Source: a phage | Length of the DNA: 64,000 nt | Strand: one strand, 5' to 3' | Sequence record: PZ229304.1 | Part shown: piece by piece, positions 9,558 to 61,887 of the stretch | Numbering within the stretch: the first letter of the stretch is position 1 | How the letters are laid out: each line of letters begins with the position of its first letter | Notes under the pieces: model-generated | Told to the model about the DNA's origin: nothing | The model's input: the letters and a program-made list of their open reading frames with translations, nothing else | The model's database searches: none | Made by a program: the position numbers and the translations under genes

Positions 9558-12137
9558 TCAGTGACAAGACGCCCATGAGTTACCAACATCGTAACCAGCA
9601 GTTAGAGGTACATTAAGATTGTAATACTCACCAGCTTTATTAACAGCGATAGATGCTAATTCTCCAGCACGACTGTAGGCTGTAAACCAACCACCTTTAG
9701 GAGATTCATGTACGTTAGCCCAAATCTTGCCAGTACGTTTCTCTTCCTCTTCTTTCCAGGCGTTAACTTTATCCAAACATTCTTTATCAATTTTCTTTTG
9801 TTCTTCTGGATCATCAACTTGAGTCCAACCTAAAGATTCTTTAGAGAACCATTTAAAATGCACCAGATCACGAGTTACTTCAAGCTGCGCTTCATCGTGA
9901 TATGCAATCATTTGTTGAACGAATGACTTATTTTTCCAGTCATCAACAAAAAAGTCAACAGCTAATCCTTCTTCTTCGATAAGATCATCGTAGATAACCA
10001 TTGCTCTTTTTGCACAAATAACACCACCACTCTGGAACAGAGAGTTAAGTATTGCGTGTGCAGATCGTGTAGGTACTTTCCTACCATCAATACCAAGAAT
10101 GTATTTCTTACCTGTTTTAACCCAAAAATCATGCAGACGTTCTTTAAGAAGCGCAAGAGGTTTTGCAGCTTCCCAGAAAGCATCGTATACAAGCTGTCCT
10201 GTATACATATCACTACCAATGGTTTTTGCTACTTTTGCAGCTTGAGCACCATAAGTAATACCATACTTAACAGATTTAGCAGGGCTTCGTTCAAACTTAC
10301 GACCAATAGTATCAGAAATACGTCGAGCCATCATTGTATGAACATCATTAGGTTTTTCCAACAACAGAGCATTACAATATTCGTGTGGTTCCTGCTCGTA
10401 CCGCCAACAGTAGTGTGATTCTATTTTTGCCTCAAGAGAATCAAAGTCATAACCAATTTGGAAGTATTTTGGAACTTCTACACCAAATAAGTTACGCATT
10501 TCATATCCGTACAGAGATGTTACACGTGGGATATTTGCTACTAACCTATGTTTCATACGAGACGTAGCTGCATCACACGTTGCAGCAGGAGTTGGTATAC
10601 GACCATCAGCCCTTACTGCCGCCAGATAACCTTTATCGTAATCCTCTTCATCTTCTTCCCAATCAGCACCACCACCTAGAATAGAGTTTCTACGATGTTT
10701 ATACGTAAGATACTGCACAATCTGCGTAGCATAAGGAAACTTTTCACCTAGTGCTTCCAAGTTAGGACAAATATCCTTCTCTTGCCCTTTTGTAAAGGAA
10801 GGGTTAGTAAGCACTTTAACACCACGACCTTTAGCTTTAGCAATACGATCTCTTAGTTTCCATTCCAAAGTTTCTGGTGTGCACTCCAGATGATCACATC
10901 TATCCTGGCAGAAGTTAGATGCTAATGTTTGATCAACATAGTCACGAATAGCTTTCTCCATTTGTGCTTCATCTTTCTTAATCTTAGTGCCAGATTTAAG
11001 AGTGATATCTTTATCTTTATATTCAGATGGACTCCAACCTAAACCAACTAACCAATTTTTAATATGTGTCGTGTCGTCTAAAGTAGCAGGTACTGTAGGA
11101 TCACAAATAGGTTCTTCTGCTGGAATAGGGAGTTTAAACTCTTTACCTAATGCAAATAACCACCAACCATCTTCTTTTTGTACAAGTTCACCAGAATGTT
11201 TCTCTGCAAACTTTATCATGTTACTTGAAGGTTCACCATTCTTTTTAAACTGTAGTTTAGGTGGAATGAATGATTTCAAATAACCTTTAGTAGCAGGTTT
11301 AGGAGGTAGTACAGGTTCTGCCTCTAAACGACATGCTTCCATTCGAGCATCCAGATCACGAATATTATCTTCTGCTTGTTTCATATTGAAAGCAAAGCCA
11401 CGGTGCTCTTGACGTGTAATAATATCAGCTACACGTTGTTCTAAGTTAAATGGTTCAGACCACTTACTATAATCGCCCCACTCTTCCATCAAATAACGGA
11501 ACACTGCGGTGTTAGCTTTGTTATCGTAAATACAGTAATACAGCATATCTGCTGCAAATGTTCTAAATCTTTCAGTTTCAGGAATGTTTTTTCTGAAATC
11601 AATTTTAACATCCCCTCCAGCTTTCTTAGATAACTCTGCCAGACTATGACCACCGAAGCGATCAGGGTTTAGTGTCTTACTTAAGATCATAGTATCACAA
11701 ATTTCAATGTTACTATTACCCCAAGTATTGTACTTAATACTGTAGTTGAGTTTAAAAAATAATTTAATTGCCAGTAAGTCGAAGTTAATGATGTTGTGTC
11801 CAACTACTTTGGTAATTTTATAGTTTGAATTACCTTTAAATTTACCTGTTCCATTTACAAAATCAGGAAAATCTTTAAGAGGGAAATGGGTATATTCTAA
11901 ATGCTCATATTCCTCCAGTCGGTATTCATACTTTCCGTCAGTCTCAACATATGGACGACCATCGAAAAGATATTTATCACCATCATGGAAAGCAATAATC
12001 TCTCCAGTATCATGACTTTCGCACACAATACAGTGCATTGCAAAACTATCTTTTAAACGATATGGACTTGCCAAGTAATCTACACTTTCGTCATTAAGCA
12101 AGTTGTTACTTTCAATGTCGAAAGTAAAAGCTCCCAT
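9558..12137 (-). CDS. DNA polymerase, family A (T7 gp5-like) with 3'-5' exonuclease domain
   Basis: 859 aa; N-terminal FDIES exo motif; several segments recognisably similar to T7 DNA polymerase as recalled from memory (RFGGHSLAELSKKAGG; IDGRKVPTRSAHAILNSLFQSGG; C-terminal GNSWASCH). Confidence 0.9.
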   Translation of the reverse strand: MGAFTFDIESNNLLNDESVDYLASPYRLKDSFAMHCIVCESHDTGEIIAFHDGDKYLFDGRPYVETDGKYEYRLEEYEHLEYTHFPLKDFPDFVNGTGKFKGNSNYKITKVVGHNIINFDLLAIKLFFKLNYSIKYNTWGNSNIEICDTMILSKTLNPDRFGGHSLAELSKKAGGDVKIDFRKNIPETERFRTFAADMLYYCIYDNKANTAVFRYLMEEWGDYSKWSEPFNLEQRVADIITRQEHRGFAFNMKQAEDNIRDLDARMEACRLEAEPVLPPKPATKGYLKSFIPPKLQFKKNGEPSSNMIKFAEKHSGELVQKEDGWWLFALGKEFKLPIPAEEPICDPTVPATLDDTTHIKNWLVGLGWSPSEYKDKDITLKSGTKIKKDEAQMEKAIRDYVDQTLASNFCQDRCDHLECTPETLEWKLRDRIAKAKGRGVKVLTNPSFTKGQEKDICPNLEALGEKFPYATQIVQYLTYKHRRNSILGGGADWEEDEEDYDKGYLAAVRADGRIPTPAATCDAATSRMKHRLVANIPRVTSLYGYEMRNLFGVEVPKYFQIGYDFDSLEAKIESHYCWRYEQEPHEYCNALLLEKPNDVHTMMARRISDTIGRKFERSPAKSVKYGITYGAQAAKVAKTIGSDMYTGQLVYDAFWEAAKPLALLKERLHDFWVKTGKKYILGIDGRKVPTRSAHAILNSLFQSGGVICAKRAMVIYDDLIEEEGLAVDFFVDDWKNKSFVQQMIAYHDEAQLEVTRDLVHFKWFSKESLGWTQVDDPEEQKKIDKECLDKVNAWKEEEEKRTGKIWANVHESPKGGWFTAYSRAGELASIAVNKAGEYYNLNVPLTAGYDVGNSWASCH

Positions 12138-35412: not shown

Positions 35413-38187
35413 TTAGTTTACCAGTTTATTTATATCTGGTAAAAGATTTATTTCACCTAAAAAATCACCTTCACCTTCCTCTAACCAACTCTCATATGCT
35501 TGTGCATGATTATAGTTACCATCAAAAGAATCTGCAACAAATTTTTCTACAGTTTTTCGAGATGTGTCAGCGCCAAATACACCAAGTTTAATACCATTGA
35601 TCGGTAAAGTGGTACTTGTTGGTACTTTCTCTGTTGCAACACGGTTGATATCTATAATCTCCTGTACGGTTGTGTTCCATTGTAAGCATTTAACACAACG
35701 GGTATGCGCTACATACAGTAGGTTTCGCTCTGCCTCTTCCAGTCCTACCCATTCACCAGTCTTTTTATCATAGTTGGAAGGAAAATCATTAGCAACAATA
35801 ACCTGATCCCACTCCAAACCTTTAGACTTGTGTGCTGTAGTCAGTGTGACTTTTGCTGTAGGAGAATTTCTATGCGTTCTAAGTGTATGTGCTATAGTGT
35901 TTGCCTTACCAGAAACTACGATGTTTAACAAGCGTTTAGCATCTGGATCAGCCTCTGCACACTCAACAAATTCATTCCAGTCTGCGTAAGGTAATACAGT
36001 TTCATGTTTTACTTTCTCAATATCTCCTCTCCGAAGAGCATTAACACTATCTACCATAGAGATAAAATCCCTGGTATCTACGTTAATAATAATTTCTTCC
36101 CCATCTGCAATACGATCCATTGCCTCCATAAGCAAGGTTAAATTCTTGCGAAAGATGATAGTGTAAGGTTTTGTATAGTCTACAACATCTGATTTGTAGC
36201 TACCTACTACAGTATCAAAGCCTTTACCAACCAAAGGGTGACGCAAAGGTTCTTTATCGCTTAAAATCATATTGGCAATGTTTGCCACTTTGGGGCCAAA
36301 ACGGAAGCAAGCAGTTAATGGAAGCTCTGCTCCATACTTAGCTGTTTCAATCATCATATTAGAGCTACCTCTAAATTGATAAATGCAGTTGTGGCTAAGA
36401 ATTTCATTACCAAAGAAGTTAGCAGTATCCTCTACTTCAATATCATAATAGATACCTTCACTATCTACAATGTCCACAATTTCTTCTGCCGTTACAGTAT
36501 CACCATCTTTTACCAACACAGACATGCCTTTAAACAAACCCGCCGCCGGAATTAAAGTATATTTGGCGGTGTTCACAGAGGACATGCATTCTTTTAAAGA
36601 TGCAAACGGCACTATTTCAAGGATCTTTTGTGCAAAACTCAATGCTTCACGATAAGAATTGAAATATTTACGTACACGGTAACGACCTTCCAACTTAGCA
36701 ACACTTACGCTTACACCTGCTTCAATGAGTGAAGCATAGATTGACATTTCACTTTCTGTCCACTCAAAACTAACTTGTGTTCCTTTACAACCTTGTGCTC
36801 GCAAAGTCACTGTTAACATTTTTCTTTCATCTACTGCACAATTGATGCTGTGCCAATGTGGATAAGCAAAATGATAATCTTTATCCTCTAAAAGTTTAAA
36901 ACCGTTTTGTCCGAATTGTTCAAAAATGTTATTGATCCTTTCTTGATTAATGCCGCGTGAACTTGCTTCAAATACACAAGTAGGAATGCCATATTGTAAA
37001 CTGTATGCCATTTCTTTTTCCATAGCAGCTTCACGGTTTTCAACAATATCCAACACCCATAATTTCTGTGCTTTTTCAGAACGTGTACGTTGCCCCAGTT
37101 TAGAAAAACCTTCTTTATCATCGAATTTGTTAGTGATCCCTACTCGGAAACCTAAATCTTTCCTCCACATTAGGTATACCACCATCTGATCATCTTTCAG
37201 AACATAGGATGAAGCCCAAATACGATGGTTATGTGTCATATCTAAAGTTTTACCTGTGGCAGTAATAATATTCCTACCTTTTGTACGTGTAGATAAAGTC
37301 TTATTTGTTACTTTTCTAAATGTAATTTTACCATTAGAATAAGACTCTACCTTATCACCGATTTGTAGGTCTTTCATTGTAACCTGACCATTCTCGGTAT
37401 TAAGTACCGTGTTTTCCGACACACATTGGAATTCATCGCCCACTACCACAATTTGTTTTGCAGATTTAGCATTTCGCAGAATAGACAAGAATGCAGGGTT
37501 AACATCCTGGAATTCATCACCAAAAATAATGTCATAACCAAGGTCAGCACCTGATAATTCAAACAATTTTACATAGGTGTCATGCGTCATCAAAGTATCT
37601 GTGTTAGGATCGATGCGCTCTCGCCACAATTGTTTTGCATACTTAACTACTTCTGTAATTAGTTTGTGTTCGTTAATACCTTTTCTTTTAATATCTGCAA
37701 GATGTACACTAGGAAAATGTTTACGGCTGATAAAAGGATCATCCGAAAATTCAAACTTACCTACGGTTTGCTTGATCATTAAACCAATCATAGCACGAGT
37801 TAACAGTGTTTTCCCTCGTTTATCAATAAGATTATTAATCTTAAATTTCTTTGCTATCTCGCTACCTGTACCTGCAACGTTAACATACTGTCCTTCTGGT
37901 CGTGACAGTTTTGCACGTAAACGATGATCCAGGAATTGATAGCAAATAGAATGCAATGTACGGCATTCTACATTTAGTGGCATCTTACGTCGTGCTTCTT
38001 CTGCCATGCTTTTATTGAAAGCTAAGTAAAGAATGCGATCTTCTGTACTGTTAGCCAGCAAATAAAGTGTTGACGTTTTGCCTGATCCAGATTTAGCTTG
38101 GATAGTTAAAAAGCGATGGTCTGGAAAAGCCTCCTTAATAGCTGTTTGCTCTTCTGTTGGAGTGAAGCTCAACTCTTTCTTAGCCAT
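35413..38187 (-). CDS. Superfamily-1 DNA helicase (UvrD/Dda-like) interrupted by an intein
   Basis: Start set at MAKKEL (GAGAGG RBS); Walker A AKSGSGKTST, motif II FGDEFQD; motif III is split: VVVGDEFQ | C...346 aa...HN | CIYQFRGSS, which rejoins to VGDEFQCIYQFRGS. Confidence 0.8.
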   Translation of the reverse strand: MAKKELSFTPTEEQTAIKEAFPDHRFLTIQAKSGSGKTSTLYLLANSTEDRILYLAFNKSMAEEARRKMPLNVECRTLHSICYQFLDHRLRAKLSRPEGQYVNVAGTGSEIAKKFKINNLIDKRGKTLLTRAMIGLMIKQTVGKFEFSDDPFISRKHFPSVHLADIKRKGINEHKLITEVVKYAKQLWRERIDPNTDTLMTHDTYVKLFELSGADLGYDIIFGDEFQDVNPAFLSILRNAKSAKQIVVVGDEFQCVSENTVLNTENGQVTMKDLQIGDKVESYSNGKITFRKVTNKTLSTRTKGRNIITATGKTLDMTHNHRIWASSYVLKDDQMVVYLMWRKDLGFRVGITNKFDDKEGFSKLGQRTRSEKAQKLWVLDIVENREAAMEKEMAYSLQYGIPTCVFEASSRGINQERINNIFEQFGQNGFKLLEDKDYHFAYPHWHSINCAVDERKMLTVTLRAQGCKGTQVSFEWTESEMSIYASLIEAGVSVSVAKLEGRYRVRKYFNSYREALSFAQKILEIVPFASLKECMSSVNTAKYTLIPAAGLFKGMSVLVKDGDTVTAEEIVDIVDSEGIYYDIEVEDTANFFGNEILSHNCIYQFRGSSNMMIETAKYGAELPLTACFRFGPKVANIANMILSDKEPLRHPLVGKGFDTVVGSYKSDVVDYTKPYTIIFRKNLTLLMEAMDRIADGEEIIINVDTRDFISMVDSVNALRRGDIEKVKHETVLPYADWNEFVECAEADPDAKRLLNIVVSGKANTIAHTLRTHRNSPTAKVTLTTAHKSKGLEWDQVIVANDFPSNYDKKTGEWVGLEEAERNLLYVAHTRCVKCLQWNTTVQEIIDINRVATEKVPTSTTLPINGIKLGVFGADTSRKTVEKFVADSFDGNYNHAQAYESWLEEGEGDFLGEINLLPDINKLVN
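36388..37425 (-). mobile_element. Intein (about 346 aa, Cys1 ... His-Asn, +1 Cys) inserted in helicase motif III; size suggests an embedded homing-endonuclease domain
   Basis: N-terminal Cys directly after GDEFQ, block-B-like TxxH (DMTHNH), C-terminal ILSHN followed by extein Cys; excision restores a canonical helicase motif. Confidence 0.7.
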
Positions 38188-47008: not shown

Positions 47009-48202
47009 ATGGCAGCACCAAAATCATGGGAACAATATAAAGAAGAGTGTCAACCTATTGCGAATAATAAAGGGATTGAGATCCTAGGATATGTTGAACC
47101 GTTTATAGGTTGTGATACGAAAATGATTCTACGCTGTAGGCAGGAACATGAATGGAAGACTTGTAGTATTAGTAATTTCAAGCACGGTAACAGTTGTCCT
47201 ATCTGTTCTGGTAAGAAGCCGTTAACATGGGAAACAGAATTGCCGATCTTGGAAGAGATAGCACAGAAGAAGGGGTATCAGGTGTTAGGGTACGTTGGAG
47301 AATGGAAAGGGAATAAAACAAAACTTGATTTGTTGTGCCATTGTGGGAATAGATGGCAAAGTACAGCAATTCATCAATTTAAAGGCGGTCGAGGTTGTCC
47401 ACAATGTAGGGGGGAGAATACAAGGAAGGCACTAACAATGTCCGACGATCAACATATTGCAGATTTCTTTTCTACAGGGAAATTTAAGGAAGGCACTATC
47501 TTCACTAACACAGGAACACGGAGTAAAGGATGCAGGCATAGTATCTGGATGGTTGAATGTCCTGTTTGCTCTCATGATGAATATGTTCAAGCAGGTGTTT
47601 GTGATGGTAAATTTTACTCTGAAGGAAATAACCTTAAACGAGGGTGCATTCCGTGTCGTTGTGGAAACTATCGGTATACAGAAGACCAGATCACCTATAG
47701 GGTAAAAAAGGAAGTAGAAGGGCAAGGGTATGTCTGGGTAGGTTGGATCGGTAAACCGTCTAGAAGTCACGGTAAGTTTAAATATCTTTGTCTTGTGCAT
47801 GGGGAACAGACAGGGAGGGCTAATAACTTATTAAGCCTCGGTCAAGGTTGTCCACAGTGTGCTGGTCATAATCAACAGCAATTATATATTAATATTGTTA
47901 AAGATAATGATATTATAGTGGCTCTTAAGTTTGGTATAGCTAAAGATAGTGATAGGCGATTAAATAGTCAAAATAGTTGTAATATGTTTTTTATGGAGCG
48001 TATTTGTTTATATGATTTTAGCACAGTGAAACAATGTAAGGCTGCTGAAAGAGCTATAAAGAAAAAATTAAAAACTGGTATTTTAACGGAAAGAGAGTTG
48101 AAAGACGGTTATACAGAAACAGTAAGTGTTTCTGATTTGGAAAATCTTCAAGAAATTATTACACAACATGGTGGCAAATTAGTATATAATAAGGAGATGT
48201 AA
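47009..48202 (+). CDS. Zinc-ribbon repeat protein with C-terminal T5orf172/GIY-YIG-like region (tentative)
   Basis: 397 aa; four repeats each ending in a CxxC pair (CPICSG, CPQCRG, CIPCRCG, CPQCAG) with a conserved GY.VLGYV / TK(M/L) / EW pattern; C-terminus QLYINIVKDNDIIVALKFGIAKDSDRRL weakly resembles T5orf172-type domains. Confidence 0.35.
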   Translation: MAAPKSWEQYKEECQPIANNKGIEILGYVEPFIGCDTKMILRCRQEHEWKTCSISNFKHGNSCPICSGKKPLTWETELPILEEIAQKKGYQVLGYVGEWKGNKTKLDLLCHCGNRWQSTAIHQFKGGRGCPQCRGENTRKALTMSDDQHIADFFSTGKFKEGTIFTNTGTRSKGCRHSIWMVECPVCSHDEYVQAGVCDGKFYSEGNNLKRGCIPCRCGNYRYTEDQITYRVKKEVEGQGYVWVGWIGKPSRSHGKFKYLCLVHGEQTGRANNLLSLGQGCPQCAGHNQQQLYINIVKDNDIIVALKFGIAKDSDRRLNSQNSCNMFFMERICLYDFSTVKQCKAAERAIKKKLKTGILTERELKDGYTETVSVSDLENLQEIITQHGGKLVYNKEM

Positions 48203-48754
48203 ATGCGGATTACTGATAAATATGTGTTCTTCTTCTCGGCAAAAGATGAATTTAGCAACTGGTATCTATCATCTTTTATTGAACCTTTAGCTCCCAAGTA
48301 TAATAATTCTATTACAAGTTCTGTTGAATTTACTTGTGTGGAACAATATATGATGTGGAGAAAAGCATGTTTGTTTTATGATTACAACATTGCATCTTCT
48401 ATTTTAACCGGAGATCTAAGATATACAGGAGAAAAAGAACAGGCATATTATAAGCGACTAGGTAGATTAGTTAAAGATTACGATGAAGCTACTTGGACTT
48501 CTTTACGGGAGAAGATTGTCAAGCGTGGTTTGTATCTTAAATACACACAAAATGAAGATCTCAAAAATAAACTTATCGCTTACGCAGATAAGGAGTTCGT
48601 AGAGGCAAGCCCTTATGATTCTATTTATGGTATCAAAATGGGAATGTGGGATCGTGATGTGGAAAATAAGGACTGTTGGAAAGGACAAAATCTTTTAGGA
48701 AAATGGCATACAGACCTTGCTGTTTATCTAAAAGCACAATCTGATATTTCCTGA
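48203..48754 (+). CDS. NADAR (YbiA/DUF1768-like) domain protein
   Basis: 183 aa; N-terminal FFFS...FSNWY.S.F......F..VEQYMMW.KA.LF.D matches the YbiA/NADAR signature as recalled. Confidence 0.55.
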   Translation: MRITDKYVFFFSAKDEFSNWYLSSFIEPLAPKYNNSITSSVEFTCVEQYMMWRKACLFYDYNIASSILTGDLRYTGEKEQAYYKRLGRLVKDYDEATWTSLREKIVKRGLYLKYTQNEDLKNKLIAYADKEFVEASPYDSIYGIKMGMWDRDVENKDCWKGQNLLGKWHTDLAVYLKAQSDIS

Positions 48755-48968: not shown

Positions 48969-49170
48969 CAAAATTATTTAAAGTTTTTACAGATTTTTGG
49001 GTACAAATTTTGAAAATGAAAAGTTCAAGTTTGGTCAAAATTATTTAAAGTTTTTGTATGTATTTCTATCCAGATTTTGAAAATGAAAACTTCAATTTTT
49101 TAAAAATTCCCCAGTTTATTTAAAGTTTTTTTGCCTTTTTCCGTAGAAAAATCAAAAATGAAAAGTTCAA
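48969..49170. repeat. Three direct repeats (about 65-75 bp period) each containing TTATTTAAAGTTTTT and TTGAAAATGAAAA(G/C)TTCAA
   Basis: Units begin near 48969, 49036 and 49110; the second motif is itself a partial palindrome (TTGAA...TTCAA); region is non-coding and AT-rich. Confidence 0.6.
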
Positions 49171-49195
49171 TTTCGTGTTTTTATAGGTGTGCGTA

Positions 49196-49303
49196 TGATA
49201 ATCATTCTCATTTGTAAATGAGAATCATTATCATTTAAGTATGTAAGTGATAATCATTCTCATTAAGAGAATGAGAATCATTAGCAAATGAGAATTTTTC
49301 TCA
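49196..49303. promoter_or_regulatory. Cluster of five Fur-box-like 15-mers (TGATAATCATTCTCA and variants)
   Basis: Sites at 49196-49210, 49219-49233, 49248-49262, 49272-49286, 49289-49303; best sites match the 7-1-7 Fur consensus TGATAATnATTATCA at 14/15. Confidence 0.5.
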
Positions 49304-49567
49304 TTTAGAGAATAACGCGCAGGGGCGGTGTTTGTCTCGCGCTCCCGTGTCCCCTCGCCATACAATAAGAATAGCATAACCAACAACAAAAGCAAGCGAT
49401 TATTTTTATCTTTACATTTCTTTACAAATTTATTTTAGACGAGCTACCGGCGATCAACCTTCCAACCAGTGCCCCCTGGTATGTTAGCCCCGCCTTTACG
49501 CCGTGGGGGTGGCGCTTCCTCTTCTGTATGTAAAACAGTATAAGCCCGATCCCTGGGCTTGTCAAGA

Positions 49568-53577: not shown

Positions 53578-53635
53578 TTGACAAGATAACTAAAATCAGT
53601 AAAATGTAATGCATAGGGCGGCACTATTGCCGCCC
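53578..53635 (+). promoter_or_regulatory. Early promoter cassette: TTGACA-16-TAAAAT + GCATAGGGCGG + hairpin GGGCGGCA-CTAT-TGCCGCCC
   Basis: Perfect 8-bp stem at 53616-53635. Confidence 0.55.
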
Positions 53636-53655
53636 TAGTGAGAGAGATTATCAAA

Positions 53656-53871
53656 ATGGCTAATATCCGCACACTGTTAAAAAATGCAAGTCAAGTTTTA
53701 TTTTCAGATGACGAATATTTTAATAAAGATATTACAGGCGTGAAAAATTTAAAAGACGTGAAGGATGTTATCGGTATCCGTGGATCTTTACGTAAAGGTG
53801 ACATATACGGTAACAAGGTGCAGTATAAACTGTCAAAAGATTATGATTTTACTTTGACAATTATTTCATAA
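53656..53871 (+). CDS. Hypothetical early protein
   Basis: Start set at MANIRTLL downstream of the cassette. Confidence 0.4.
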   Translation: MANIRTLLKNASQVLFSDDEYFNKDITGVKNLKDVKDVIGIRGSLRKGDIYGNKVQYKLSKDYDFTLTIIS

Positions 53872-59202: not shown

Positions 59203-59586
59203 ATGAGCAATATCATCAACCTGGCGGCTACTGTAAACGGTAAAGATTTTAACGGCGCTGTAGATCGTGATCCTATGTGGTGCTTATCCGTGTTTAAAGG
59301 CGATCTGGTTGAAGTTAGAACAACCGAAGGTTATAGCGACGATTATAAATGCGAGATCCATTTACACAACTGGTACACGGGTAAAACTTATGCGCTGAAT
59401 CATGCGTTTATCGGCAAGGTTGAATATAGAGAAATGATCGACGAAGAAACGGGGCAAGATTTTAGCGATTATGTTTATATCCGTTCCGAGACATTAGCAG
59501 AACGTTTGATCGAGAAAATGAAAGCAAAAAATAAAATTAATTTAGCTCATTGGATTGATATAACAAACGATCCAGCTTATAAGTAA
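59203..59586 (+). CDS. Hypothetical early protein
   Basis: Start set at MSNIINL (GAGGA RBS) within ORF 59128..59586. Confidence 0.45.
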   Translation: MSNIINLAATVNGKDFNGAVDRDPMWCLSVFKGDLVEVRTTEGYSDDYKCEIHLHNWYTGKTYALNHAFIGKVEYREMIDEETGQDFSDYVYIRSETLAERLIEKMKAKNKINLAHWIDITNDPAYK

Positions 59587-59599
59587 ATGACACTTCACA

Positions 59600-59629
59600 C
59601 CAGGGCGCACAAAGCGCCCTTTCTTTTTA
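59600..59629 (+). terminator. Rho-independent terminator (AGGGCGC-ACAAA-GCGCCCT + TTCTTTTT)
   Basis: 7-bp GC stem and T-rich tail 14 nt after stop; closes the early-gene block. Confidence 0.6.
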
Positions 59630-59835
59630 CCTAAATAAAGATGATAGCTTTTACCTATCAAAAACGTTCACCGAAAAAAGTGAATAGATCGCGGTATCGA
59701 GCTAATCAAGGAGCAGATGAACAACCATACCATGAAGATCATAAGGCGCTTACAGCGTGTTTTAGACCGCTTATTTTTAATTTCTTCATGCAACTATTTG
59801 GCAAAAACAGCCTTTTTCTTGTCTTTCCTCTTAAA

Positions 59836-59908
59836 TGATAATCATTCTTATTTATAGCTGATTATTTATGCAATAAACTGCATAATGCAATAATGATAAT
59901 CATTCTTA
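59836..59908. promoter_or_regulatory. Two Fur-box-like sites (TGATAATCATTCTTA) 58 bp apart
   Basis: 59836-59850 and 59894-59908; second site extends to ATAATGATAATCATTCTTA (16/19 to classic Fur box GATAATGATAATCATTATC). Confidence 0.45.
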
Positions 59909-60295
59909 ACTTATGACCATCTAACCTATAAAATAATAAGTTATCTAACTAAATTAAAACTAATTATCTTACTTTTATTTATAACTTACTGTTACTATCT
60001 CATTGATAACCTTATATTAAACAACAATAACTAATATAAATCATTACTAAGCTAAATATAATCTATCTAACCTTTAAAACTATAACTATAATCTATTGAA
60101 TTATTGCACAAAGTAACTATTAAATCGTTAGTAACATTACTAAATAATTAATATCCTATCTATTTATGATCTAATCTTTACATTCCTATCTATTACCTAA
60201 ATAATCATTTCATATAGTAATCATTTCATACAATAACTATAACAAGAAATATAATTCGCAAGCGTATCATTAGCAGCCTATGCCGGACACATAGG

Positions 60296-60442
60296 CGGCT
60301 AATAATAACGCAACTACACACCCCACATAATAACTATCACCGATAGTTATTATTTGTGCTTATGTAGCTTGCAACAACTGCAAGCGCAACAATATACATG
60401 GTATATTGTATCCCTTACATTGTTGCGGTGCGTTATTATTAG
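60296..60442. repeat. Nested palindromic region: long-range inverted repeat enclosing three hairpins
   Basis: Outer arms GCTAATAATAACGCAAC (60298-60314) / GTTGCG..GCGTTATTATTAGC (60422-60442); inner perfect 12-bp palindrome ATAATAACTATC-ACC-GATAGTTATTAT (60327-60353); GCTTGCA-ACAAC-TGCAAGC (60367-60385); CAATATAC-ATGG-GTATATTG (60388-60407). Confidence 0.55.
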
Positions 60443-60771
60443 CTAATGTTTAGAACATTGGCTATAATATAAGCTAAATCATAAGCTATGCAATAATAAA
60501 CATGGTGAATAATGACATTGATGATCATAATGCGCCACCTTCCAGGGGGCGCTATGTGAACACAAAGAAATCTTTCTTGTCAAGAAAATATTACTACTAT
60601 TGCGCAAAATTATTTATATCTGAATAGATGATTTTTTATGCTATTGCCCCCTTGATTATTACTATTTGTTGCCCTAACTATTGTCATTTGTTGAGCCTAC
60701 TTTCTTAAAAGCGCAATAAATCAGAATTATCTTGATTTTTAGTCGGTTTTATAGTACAGAAAGTATGCAAA

Positions 60772-60786
60772 TGATAATCATTATCA
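60772..60786. promoter_or_regulatory. Perfect match to the 15-bp 7-1-7 Fur-box consensus (TGATAATCATTATCA)
   Basis: Extended context AATGATAATCATTATC equals positions 4-19 of the classic 19-bp Fur box. Confidence 0.55.
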
Positions 60787-60952
60787 GCTATCTTCCACGG
60801 GTGGCACTATTTCACGCCAGATCATTTCATTTGGCAAGGTGTATATAGATGTTTAGAAATGCCAAGCCATTGATTTACTTAGAATTTATCTGTTTTGTTG
60901 TGAGTAGTGCCTTTCTTGCTCAGAAAATAATCAAAAGTCTTATAAGTCATTG

Positions 60953-60990
60953 AATGATAATGCAAATGATAATTATTCTCATTGATATTT
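60953..60990. repeat. GATAAT hexamer repeat cluster (AATGATAATGCAAATGATAATTATTCTCATTGATA)
   Basis: Several GATAAT/ATTATC-type hexamers in direct and inverted orientation, followed by a G-rich tract. Confidence 0.4.
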
Positions 60991-61428
60991 GAGGGGGACG
61001 GTCGGCAGAAATCGGGGGGCGCTGAAAATCGCGTTAAGCACCTCTCGCAAGCGAGCAGTATTTTGCGGCAAGTTATTGATATTATTGACTTTACGCTTAA
61101 GAAAAGGGGGCGTGTCGAAATAAATCGGGTATACCGGAAAATTTTTGTGGCATAGATATTTATTTGTCTATATTATGTACAAAGGGGTGTGTTAAAAATA
61201 ATAGGTATATATAGAATAATTGATAGGGAAATCCTATACTAAATCCTTCATTAATGATGTTCCTATGTTGCTGTTCTTGTAATAGATGAAAAGACGCTAT
61301 ATGATGTGTGGCATGAAACGTAAACTTATAAGATGCAAATAATGCTTGCATTGAATAGAAATGTCTATACACTGTGTTTCATAAGATATGCAATATCGCG
61401 CATAACAAACTACTAATGAGAGGTGTAA

Positions 61429-61887
61429 ATGAAAACTGTATCTTTGTATCTTGCTAACACGGAGCGTGTACATAATCTTGTAAAAGAATGCGGTGTGAGT
61501 GTTCAATTTAACATAGGAAAGCCTTCCGTGGTGACAGGCAGTGAGATGTGTGTTATTGATTTCCTCAATGAATATTTTCGTGGAAAACCTATTGCTCGTC
61601 ACTTCATTCGAGAAATGCGAGATGTACAACAGGATTATGAATTCTACCCAGAAATTTGTGAACGCTATGAAACTATTCTTAGTTCTGTAGAAGATCCAGA
61701 TACCAGTGAAACAGGTGTTTCCCACTTACTGTGGATGTTGAATGAAATTCAGGATGGGTGTAATGGTATGTCTGAAACCAAACGCCATCGTTGGCTAGGC
61801 TATATTCAGGGTGTTATGGTTATGAAAAACCTTATTACAGTGAGTGATGAACGTAACGCTACACGCCCCGTCTTTAATGGAGCATAA
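61429..61887 (+). CDS. Hypothetical protein
   Basis: 152-aa ORF with GAGAGGTG RBS; first gene after the 1.8 kb non-coding region. Confidence 0.45.
   Translation: MKTVSLYLANTERVHNLVKECGVSVQFNIGKPSVVTGSEMCVIDFLNEYFRGKPIARHFIREMRDVQQDYEFYPEICERYETILSSVEDPDTSETGVSHLLWMLNEIQDGCNGMSETKRHRWLGYIQGVMVMKNLITVSDERNATRPVFNGA

What the first reader, a model, noticed from the sequence alone, without database searches (positions are those of the whole stretch)
59587..61428. A 1.8 kb non-coding AT-rich region with further Fur-box matches, including a perfect 7-1-7 site
No convincing ORF occupies this segment between the early-gene terminator and the next gene block. It contains TGATAATCATTCTTA twice (59836, 59894), an exact TGATAATCATTATCA (60772-60786, 17 of 19 to the classic Fur box) and a GATAAT hexamer cluster (60953-60990) next to a G-rich tract. 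Together with the cluster at 49.2 kb, Fur-like sites bracket the early-gene block on both sides. The region is a candidate for a regulatory hub, replication origin, genome terminus or non-coding RNA locus.
Basis: seen in the sequence. Interest (0 to 1): 0.65.

Follow-up and report, generated by a model that had tools for sequence, protein, structure and literature searches.

The report
Phage genome ends carrying Fur boxes
This 1.8 kb gene-free stretch is where the two physical ends of a phi92-like E. coli phage genome meet; it holds the 343-bp terminal repeat, four conserved sites that match the host's iron-regulator (Fur) binding sites, and a previously undescribed folded RNA-like element.

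Summary
The segment has no conserved ORF, and every quoted motif is at the stated coordinates and far beyond chance, even against shuffles of this AT-rich segment.

What it is: the window comes from a Justusliebigvirus (phi92-like myovirus). By homology, window 60694-61036 is the 343-bp direct terminal repeat (DTR). It is bounded by cut sites conserved across genera (TGTTG^AGC and CGTTA^AGC). The finding therefore consists of right-end non-coding DNA, the DTR, and the left-end leader before the first early gene.

The Fur-like sites:
- They are conserved at matching positions in about 20 relatives from several lineages.
- Site D sits about 75 nt (73-81) from the right cut in the relatives that have it.
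- In a complete relative they occur at only two loci.
- A weight matrix built from phage sites alone picks the Fur-regulated ent/fep promoters as its top hits in 50 kb of E. coli K-12.
- The same motif arrays lie in phage T5's injection-stop region and at the left end of a Klebsiella jumbo phage.

Window 60274-60443 holds a ~170-nt element with strong covariation that favours the minus strand; Rfam has no match.

Not shown: Fur binding itself, the role of the sites, and transcription of the element. I found no support for a replication origin.

The parts
59602..59620 (+). Rho-independent terminator hairpin ending the upstream gene (T4 gp30.8-like, 59203-59586)
   Evidence: 7-bp stem with 6 G-C pairs, T-rich tail. 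Hairpin conserved in all aligned genera. Pfam PF06019 for the upstream gene.
59680..59709 (.). Conserved block GTGAATAGATCGCGGTATCGAGCTAATCAA, function unknown
   Evidence: Nearly invariant between Justusliebigvirus and Phapecoctavirus in alignment A1.
59830..59856 (.). Fur-type site A (AATGATAATCATTCTTATTTA)
   Evidence: Exact 13-mer core. Phage-derived PWM scores 21.9 and 23.5. Orthologous site in phAPEC8, phiWec186, ZCKP1 and the Klebsiella relative.
59866..59885 (.). Conserved palindrome TTATGCA-N6-TGCATAA between sites A and B
   Evidence: Conserved in all six aligned genomes. TRF flags an ATGCAATA repeat at 59868-59895.
59888..59914 (.). Fur-type site B (AATAATGATAATCATTCTTAAC)
   Evidence: Exact core. 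16 of 19 positions to the Fur consensus. PWM 17.8. Weaker conservation in other genera.
59900..60260 (.). G-depleted, 80% A+T spacer with short CTATCTA / ACCTAAATAA-type repeats; variable between genera
   Evidence: G 3.9% against C 16.3% on the + strand. Repeats D3, D5, D6, D14 and D19. Large indels between genera.
60274..60443 (-). Conserved ~170-nt structured element: a 14-bp closing stem, a three-way junction with two long arms, and a 3' hairpin. Candidate ncRNA.
   Evidence: 19 distinct homologues: 97.7% of cells paired, 13 pairs with compensatory changes, 0 of 500 shuffles reach this. A further helix shows 7 distinct complementary arm combinations. Minus-strand MFE -81.7 kcal/mol, z -9.3, against plus-strand -65.5. 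The minus strand is more stable in all 19. One copy per genome. No Rfam match.
60689..60698 (.). Left DTR boundary / terminase cut site TGTTG^AGCCT (cut between 60693 and 60694)
   Evidence: phi92 record position 1 maps to window 60694. The boundary ATGTTG|AGCAAG is identical in Schickermooser, which has an exact 329-bp DTR.
60694..61036 (.). Direct terminal repeat (343 bp), present once here because the assembly is collapsed
   Evidence: phi92 annotation DTR-L 1-343 and DTR-R 148270-148612, mapped by blastn at 97.5% identity. BME3 has a 342-bp DTR by PhageTerm. The records of phi92, BME3 and Klebsiella phage phi1_175008 end at window 61035 or 61036.
60760..60792 (.). Fur-type site C, a perfect 7-1-7 TGATAATCATTATCA, about 80 nt inside the left terminus
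   Evidence: 17 of 19 to the Fur consensus. PWM 26.8. Present in all Justusliebigvirus relatives examined, weaker or shifted in other genera.
60955..60987 (.). Fur-type site D (TGCAAATGATAATTATTCTCATTGATA), about 75 nt (73-81) before the right cut in the relatives that carry it
   Evidence: PWM 24.1. Offset to the right cut is 73-81 nt in about 20 genomes across lineages.
61030..61040 (.). Right DTR boundary / terminase cut site CGCGTTA^AGCA (cut between 61036 and 61037)
   Evidence: Same sequence at the boundary in phi92, Schickermooser and phAPEC8-type genomes.
61037..61428 (+). Left-end leader before the first early gene. Contains the conserved block 61180-61232 (candidate promoter or regulatory site) and is an insertion hot spot.
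   Evidence: Block conserved between genera. Weak sigma-70-like matches at 61147-61176 and 61192-61220. Relatives carry two or three extra genes in the homologous interval.

Best explanation
The segment is the concatemer-junction (genome-end) region of a phi92-like myovirus.

Shown by homology:
- Terminase cuts replicated DNA at two conserved GTTR^AGC sites, at 60693/60694 and 61036/61037.
- The 343 bp between the cuts ends up at both ends of the packaged genome.
- 59587-60693 is therefore the non-coding right end, and 61037-61428 is the leader of the left-end early genes.

Shown by sequence statistics and conservation:
- The region carries four operators of the E. coli Fur-box type, two of them inside the repeat, so each virion DNA has six.
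- It also carries a covarying structured element of about 170 nt.

Inferred:
- Host Fur-Fe2+ dimers bind these sites and the larger array 11.7 kb away. This would form nucleoprotein complexes at the genome ends that couple an early step (entry, or early transcription from the ends) or terminase cutting to the host's iron state.
- Many replicating copies would also titrate Fur, by the logic of the Fur titration assay.
- The structured element most likely acts as a minus-strand RNA.
For: Terminus:
- phi92's annotated DTRs map to 60694-61036.
- BME3 has a 342-bp DTR determined with PhageTerm.
- Stephanstirmvirinae genomes are stated to end in DTRs.
- Schickermooser has an exact 329-bp repeat with the same two boundary sequences.
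- Several records start or stop at these positions.

Fur type:
- 17 of 19 to the consensus and a perfect 7-1-7 site.
- Enrichment against whole-window and local shuffles.
- Positional conservation in about 20 relatives, with site D at an offset of about 75 nt (73-81) from the right cut.
- In the 147-kb genome of alia the motif occurs at only two loci.
- A PWM built from 65 phage sites ranks the fepB-entC and fepA-fes promoters as hits 1-3, and fepD-entS as hits 6-7, in 50 kb of E. coli K-12.
- The same arrays occur in unrelated phages: the T5 injection-stop region and the Muenster left end. This argues for a shared host protein.

Structure.
Against: - No binding data exist, and the held literature does not mention Fur for these phages or for T5.
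- No conserved sigma-70 promoter overlaps the sites. The promoter scan is not enriched (19 found against 15.8 expected), so classical Fur repression is unsupported.
- The near-fixed distance of site D from the cut would suit a phage terminase-recognition protein just as well.
- The termini of this particular isolate were not measured; only homology supports them.
- Transcription of the structured element is unproven. No conserved promoter or terminator flanks it.
Confidence: 0.6

Rival explanations
1. The palindromic sites are recognised by a phage-encoded protein (small terminase or another end-binding or regulatory protein), not by Fur. They would work like cosB or pac sites that position terminase at the two cuts.
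For: Sites C and D lie about 80 and 66 nt from the two cut sites. D sits at a nearly constant offset (73-81 nt) across lineages. The motif is limited to two non-coding loci per genome. No promoter overlaps the sites.
Against: Sites A and B, and the largest array, lie 0.8 kb and 11.7 kb from any cut. The same motif occurs in the unrelated T5-like and Alcyoneusvirus phages. It cannot be told apart from chromosomal Fur operators by PWM. No DNA-binding domain was found in the neighbouring genes.
Confidence: 0.2
2. The segment is a replication origin: an AT-rich unwinding element plus structured DNA that primes or loads the replisome.
For: An 80% A+T tract at 59900-60260. A strongly structured element with strand asymmetry that could act as single-stranded DNA. 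T5's comparable region carries DnaA boxes.
Against: There are no DnaA boxes in 59587-61428, and none are enriched in the window. There are no iterons and no adjacent initiator gene. The AT-rich tract is poorly conserved between genera.
Confidence: 0.08
3. The Fur-like matches are a by-product of AT-rich, repetitive non-coding DNA and have no specific function.
For: The segment is 31-35% G+C and full of short repeats.
Against: Dinucleotide-preserving shuffles of the segment itself never reach the observed counts. The sites are conserved while the flanking DNA diverges to about 73% identity with many indels.
Confidence: 0.04
4. The structured element at 60274-60443 acts as DNA (a hairpin or cruciform used during duplication of the terminal repeat or concatemer processing, as proposed for the right end of T7) rather than as an RNA.
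For: It lies 250 bp from the DTR boundary and occurs once per genome. No conserved promoter or terminator was found around it (and reading).
Against: The closing stem's arms are 116 nt apart, so extrusion from duplex DNA is unlikely. Non-Watson-Crick cells are G.U on the minus strand and A.C on the plus strand (101 against 1). The minus strand is about 19 kcal/mol more stable in all 19 homologues. This points to a single strand of one sense.
Confidence: 0.25

Closest known systems
Direct terminal repeats of phage phi92 (NC_023693, DTR-L 1-343 / DTR-R 148270-148612) and other Stephanstirmvirinae
   Same: 97.5% identical sequence, the same 343-bp length, and the same boundary sequences TGTTG|AGC and CGTTA|AGC. 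The same neighbours: a gp30.8-like gene upstream and the gp001 homologue downstream.
   Different: Nothing substantive. The window shows one collapsed copy, and the termini of this isolate were not measured. The annotations seen and the held papers say nothing about the sites inside the repeat.
E. coli Fur box (GATAATGATAATCATTATC; 7-1-7 and hexamer-array descriptions; operators of ent/fep, fhu and related genes). The consensus and the Fur regulation of ent/fep are established knowledge.
   Same: A perfect 7-1-7 site, 17 of 19 to the consensus, and overlapping 6-nt registers. A phage-derived PWM recovers the ent/fep operators as top hits.
   Different: The sites are not placed over a recognisable -35/-10 pair. 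They lie in a virulent phage's terminal repeat and non-coding ends rather than upstream of iron genes. Binding is untested.
Phage T5 injection-stop signal region (iss; Repeat Region 3, DRE/DRC repeats; Davison, bioRxiv 10.1101/866236)
   Same: A non-coding, highly conserved, repeat-dense region at a terminal-repeat boundary. It carries arrays of the same AATGA(T/G)AAT(C/G)ATT(A/C)TCATT unit. T5 also has a perfect TGATAATCATTATCA about 0.23 kb from its left end.
   Different: T5's repeat is 10 kb and the arrays sit next to paired DnaA boxes, which are absent here. In the window the true array lies at 49.2 kb, outside the finding; the finding itself holds single sites. Two-step DNA transfer is not known for phi92-like phages.
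Concatemer junction of T7-like phages (terminal repeat flanked by short repeat arrays; a hairpin-forming sequence near the right end). Recalled from memory, not tested here.
   Same: A short DTR with sequence-specific cuts, flanking non-coding DNA with short repeats, and early genes reading inward from the left end.
   Different: No sequence similarity, no known host transcription-factor sites in T7 ends, and a myovirus of about 147 kb rather than a 40-kb podovirus.

Membership tests
phi92-type short direct terminal repeat | The same sequence is present at both physical ends of virion DNA | not testable with these tools
   No reads are available for this isolate. Relatives meet the feature: phi92 annotation, BME3 by PhageTerm, and Schickermooser with an exact 329-bp repeat at both record ends.
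phi92-type short direct terminal repeat | Homologous repeat with conserved boundary (cut-site) sequences | tested here: met
   blastn maps phi92 position 1 to 60694 and its last base to 61036. The boundaries TGTTG|AGC and CGTTA|AGC are shared across two genera and found in about 20 relatives.
E. coli Fur box | Match to the 19-bp consensus, the 7-1-7 inverted repeat, or three or more GATAAT-type hexamers | tested here: met
   17 of 19 and a perfect 7-1-7 at 60767-60786. Three further sites score PWM 17.8-24.1 (best register per site).
E. coli Fur box | Cannot be told apart from genuine chromosomal Fur operators | tested here: met
   The phage-only PWM places hits 1-3 and 6-7 in the three Fur-regulated ent/fep intergenic regions, which make up 1.5% of the 50 kb scanned. 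Caveat: the seed equals the Fur core.
E. coli Fur box | The operator overlaps a promoter so that Fur binding represses transcription | tested here: inconclusive
   Only weak sigma-70-like matches overlap sites C and D on the minus strand. The scan is not enriched (19 against 15.8 expected), and no conserved -35/-10 pair was seen.
E. coli Fur box | Bound by Fur in vitro or in vivo | not testable with these tools
   Needs EMSA or footprinting, a Fur titration assay, or ChIP.
T5-type injection-stop signal region | Conserved non-coding repeat region at a terminal-repeat boundary, with DRE/DRC-type arrays | tested here: inconclusive
   The same unit is present. Within the finding there are only single sites; the array is at 49190-49310, 11.7 kb from the right end.
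T5-type injection-stop signal region | Paired DnaA boxes within inverted repeats (IRD'/IRC') | tested here: not met
   There is no TTWTNCACA in 59587-61428. The window holds 12 matches against 11.8 expected.
T5-type injection-stop signal region | Two-step DNA transfer that halts at the site | not testable with these tools
   Needs blender-shear or time-resolved entry experiments.
Any described RNA family (Rfam 15) | Covariance-model match at or near the gathering score | tested here: not met
   No hit over 60274-60443 at E up to 10. ARAGORN finds no tRNA or tmRNA in the window.
Bacterial or phage replication origin | DnaA boxes or iterons beside an AT-rich unwinding element and an initiator gene | tested here: not met
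   An AT-rich tract is present. There are no DnaA boxes, no iterons, and no initiator among the neighbours.

The most novel reading that the evidence does not exclude
Fur-box arrays would be a shared, convergently used 'end module' of large enterobacterial phages with terminal repeats: phi92-like, T5-like and Alcyoneusvirus.

In this reading, host Fur is the missing host factor that marks the first-entering DNA and pauses or gates entry. This would include T5's long-unexplained injection-stop signal.

The parallel in phi92-like phages is as follows. The block between the right terminus and the 49.2-kb array is 11.7 kb, about 8% of the genome. It consists of small genes read towards the end. 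It would be a T5-like first-step-transfer region.

The minus-strand structured RNA at 60274-60443 would be a new phage ncRNA, made from the end that enters.
Probability: 0.15. Interest if true: 0.85.

Novelty: new variant of a known kind. Interest (0 to 1): 0.62.

Why it matters
It locates the physical ends and cut sites of this phage's genome. That matters for annotation and for engineering phages of this family, several of which are described as therapy candidates.

Conserved host Fur-type operators inside a virulent phage's terminal repeat are not mentioned in the annotations or held papers I examined. The same arrays sit in T5's injection-stop region.

If Fur binds them, phage entry, early expression or packaging would be tied to host iron status. 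The mechanism of T5's two-step DNA transfer, open for decades, would gain a directly testable host factor.

The covarying ~170-nt element is a candidate new phage RNA family.

Tried and rejected
- Protein-coding reading: rejected. All ORFs of 41 aa or more are disrupted in relatives.
- Known RNA families, tRNA and tmRNA: no match.
- DnaA boxes and iterons, for the origin hypothesis: absent.
- Sigma-70 promoter scan: not enriched. By reading, no conserved -35/-10 overlaps the Fur-like sites or precedes the structured element. A TATAAT sits directly upstream of the element only in the phAPEC8 group.
- The 37-nt repeat family D1 as a promoter: no consistent hexamers. The copy at 60512 does not score as Fur-like.
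- Simple hairpin GCTTGCAA-N3-TTGCAAGC as the conserved structure: replaced by a longer helix that uses its 'loop', because that helix covaries.
- More distant relatives (L005-L008), T5 and Muenster: they lack the structured element.
- Metagenome pattern scan: mostly chance palindromes. A minority of loci, about 10 by blastn, were true relatives.
- Literature: the phi92 genome paper is not held. Searches for Fur boxes in virulent phages or T5 found only a Fur box upstream of sitABCD in lambdoid phages.
- Flanking genes: no DNA-binding domain recognised.
Full report
**Observation**

The segment 59587-61428 lies between a terminator hairpin (59602-59620) and the ATG at 61429. It holds no ORF longer than 70 aa. 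Each ORF of 41 aa or more is interrupted by stops or frameshifts in close relatives (phi92, arall, inny) or in other genera. It is therefore truly non-coding.

- AATGATAATCATTCTTA at 59834 and 59892.
- The perfect 7-1-7 site TGATAATCATTATCA at 60772-60786, 17 of 19 to GATAATGATAATCATTATC.
- A GATAAT cluster at 60956-60988 next to a G-rich tract.

They are not a by-product of AT-richness. Dinucleotide-preserving shuffles of the whole window expect 0.03 matches of the 19-mer with up to 3 mismatches, against 6 seen. Shuffles of the segment alone give 0.000 exact cores against 3 seen, and 0.094 sites of the 7-1-7 pattern with up to 2 mismatches against 4 seen; 0 of 500 shuffles reach the observed counts.

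**What the window is**

The segment is 94-96% identical to many Justusliebigvirus genomes (phi92-like myoviruses, Stephanstirmvirinae). It is about 73% identical, in patches, to Phapecoctavirus. Most careful annotations leave it empty; some pipelines fill it with 10-11 'hypothetical proteins'.

**The genome ends**

The phi92 reference record annotates a left terminal repeat at 1-343 and a right one at 148270-148612. blastn maps phi92 base 1 to window 60694 and its last base to window 61036, at 97.5% identity over the left-end alignment that spans the repeat. Independent support:
- Phage BME3 has a 342-bp DTR by PhageTerm, and its record ends at window 61035.
- Klebsiella phage phi1_175008 also ends there.
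- A 2025 paper states that Stephanstirmvirinae genomes end in direct terminal repeats.
- The Phapecoctavirus Schickermooser carries an exact 329-bp repeat at both record ends.

The boundaries are the same in both genera...TGTTG|AGC... on the left and ...CGCGTTA|AGC... on the right. This suggests a common cut motif, GTTR^AGC. I found these two boundary motifs at consistent spacing in about 20 relatives.

The finding therefore divides into three parts:
- The right-terminal non-coding DNA, 59587-60693.
- The DTR, 60694-61036, present once in this collapsed assembly.
- The left-end leader, 61037-61428, ahead of the phi92 gp001 homologue.

The leader is an insertion hot spot. Relatives carry two or three extra genes in the homologous interval.

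**The Fur-type sites**

There are four sites: A 59830-59856, B 59888-59914, C 60760-60792 and D 60955-60987. C and D lie inside the DTR, so virion DNA carries six.

Conservation:
- Across about 20 relatives from several lineages, a site is kept 300-420 nt upstream of the structured element.
- Another site (D) is kept 73-81 nt, usually 75, before the right cut, while the surrounding DNA diverges with many indels.
- In the complete 147-kb genome of alia, the core with up to 1 mismatch occurs only here and in one array that corresponds to window 49190-49310.

To ask whether the motif is really of the Fur type, I built a weight matrix from 65 phage sites only. I seeded it with the phage's own repeat, which does equal the Fur core. 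I then scanned E. coli K-12 positions 600-650 kb. Hits 1-3 fall in the fepB-entC and fepA-fes divergent promoters, and hits 6-7 in fepD-entS. Together these regions make up 1.5% of the sequence scanned. Fur regulation of these operons is established knowledge.

The sites are thus operationally indistinguishable from host Fur operators. Binding itself is inferred, not shown.

**Link to other phages**

A sensitive search with the 49.2-kb array hit three groups:
- Phage T5 at 9608-9709, inside the annotated injection stop signal of the left terminal repeat.
- Other Tequintavirus genomes.
- The non-coding left end of the PhageTerm-defined terminal repeat of Klebsiella jumbo phage Muenster.

Reading those loci shows six or more tandem units of AATGA(T/G)AAT(C/G)ATT(A/C)TCATT in each. 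In T5 the matrix scores 9548-9725, a region that spans the estimated first-step-transfer shear point at 9618. It also scores a perfect TGATAATCATTATCA about 0.23 kb from the left terminus.

Davison's analysis of 25 T5-like phages calls these units DRE/DRC repeats and palindromes, stresses their conservation, and proposes DnaA boxes as the stop signal. It never mentions Fur. Searches of the held literature found no report of Fur boxes in T5 or in virulent coliphage ends.

The same motif in three unrelated phage groups that share hosts favours a host protein as the binder over a phage-specific one.

**Differences from T5**

The finding has no DnaA boxes, the repeat is 343 bp rather than 10 kb, and the finding holds single sites rather than an array.

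One parallel is worth recording. The array at 49.2 kb lies 11.7-11.8 kb from the right terminus, about 8% of the genome. The genes in between are small and read towards that end, as do dmp, A1 and A2 in T5. T5's first-step DNA is 7.9% of its genome. This is an analogy, not evidence.

**The structured element**

Window 60274-60443 contains nested inverted repeats that are conserved across lineages. I aligned 19-20 distinct homologues from phage records, IMG/VR and metagenomes.

Evidence for a conserved structure:
- 97.7% of cells form standard pairs.
- 13 pairs show compensatory changes.
- No shuffle of 500 reaches the observed values.
- Sliding the 3' partners collapses pairing to 23-51%.
- A further helix, which uses the 'loop' of an invariant 19-nt palindrome, shows seven distinct complementary arm combinations.

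Evidence for the minus strand:
- On the structure predicted for the minus strand, non-Watson-Crick cells are G.U on the minus strand and A.C on the plus strand (101 against 1). In the one helix predicted identically on both strands, the count is 10 against 1.
- The minus strand folds about 19 kcal/mol better in all 19 homologues.
- For the window, the minus strand gives -81.7 kcal/mol (z -9.3) against -65.5 for the plus strand.

A covariance model finds one copy per genome. It finds none in more distant relatives, T5 or Muenster. Rfam has no match.

The asymmetry points to a single-stranded minus-sense molecule, most simply an RNA. I found no conserved promoter or terminator, so transcription remains to be shown. 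A DNA role in end processing is a live rival.

**Other anatomy**

- An 80% A+T tract at 59900-60260 is depleted of G on the + strand (3.9% G against 16.3% C). It carries short repeats and is variable between genera.
- A block at 59680-59709 and a palindrome at 59866-59885 are conserved.
- A conserved block at 61180-61232 in the leader may be a promoter or regulatory site.

**Mechanism and confidence**

Firm, about 0.9: this is the terminal / concatemer-junction region, with a 343-bp DTR and two conserved cut sites.

Likely, about 0.6-0.7: host Fur binds the four sites.

Open: what that binding does. The options are gating of an early step at the entering end, iron-dependent control of transcription from the ends, assistance to terminase, or titration of Fur by replicating DNA. 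The phage encodes iron-dependent ribonucleotide reductases.

The replication-origin reading has no support.

**Novelty**

The DTR itself is known for phi92. The following are not described in the sources I could examine:
- Fur-type operators conserved inside and beside the repeat.
- Their identity with the T5 injection-stop repeats.
- The covarying element.

Noticed in passing
window 48969-49310: A non-coding hub. A ~67-bp unit is repeated twice (TRF 48969-49099), with a third, more divergent copy seen by eye up to about 49170. It is followed directly by an array of about 10 overlapping Fur-type registers (49190-49310) and a GC-rich stretch. The array lies 11.7-11.8 kb (about 8% of the genome) from the right terminus and matches the T5 injection-stop region.
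   Followed up: partly
L141/L144 (phage T5 NC_005859: 9548-9725 and ~235-249): T5's injection-stop region consists largely of Fur-type units spanning the estimated shear point at 9618. A perfect TGATAATCATTATCA also lies inside dmp, 0.23 kb from the left terminus. The T5 analysis I read does not mention Fur.
   Followed up: partly
L142 (Klebsiella phage Muenster MT708547: 785-1110, 1306, 2422): Seven or more Fur-type units in the 1.3-kb non-coding left end of the PhageTerm-predicted terminal repeat region (annotated span 1-20030), plus single sites near the first genes.
   Followed up: partly
window 59900-60260: A 360-nt tract with 3.9% G against 16.3% C on the + strand (C-poor on the minus strand, just downstream of the structured element). 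It is rich in AAN/ARN-like triplets and short CTATCTA repeats, and is variable between genera.
   Followed up: partly
window 61037-61428 versus L002, L003, L011, L013: The interval between the DTR and the first early gene is a gene-insertion hot spot. inny, PATM and phAPEC8 carry two extra small genes there and phiWec186 three, all absent from this window.
   Followed up: partly
window 36857-36886: A consensus DnaA box (TTATCCACA, minus strand) sits directly next to a weaker Fur-like site (AAAATGATAATCTTTATCC, PWM 12.6). This echoes the DnaA-box plus array arrangement in T5.
   Followed up: no
window 47009-48754: The genes just upstream of the hub encode a CapR / T5orf172-type endonuclease-like protein and a NADAR-domain protein.
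   Followed up: no
records MG065645, MG065689, MG065639, MG065656: Four unannotated records named 'Campylobacter phage' are about 96% identical to this E. coli phage region, so the host label looks doubtful.
   Followed up: no
window 53603-53758 (-): A sub-threshold Rfam match to the hilD 3'UTR (29.4 bits against a gathering score of 74, E 0.007). Probably chance.
   Followed up: no
records PP357458, OR786310, PQ631072: Several relatives' records start within a few hundred bases of the 49.2-kb hub rather than at the DTR. This may be arbitrary linearisation, or it may reflect a coverage or break feature there.
   Followed up: no
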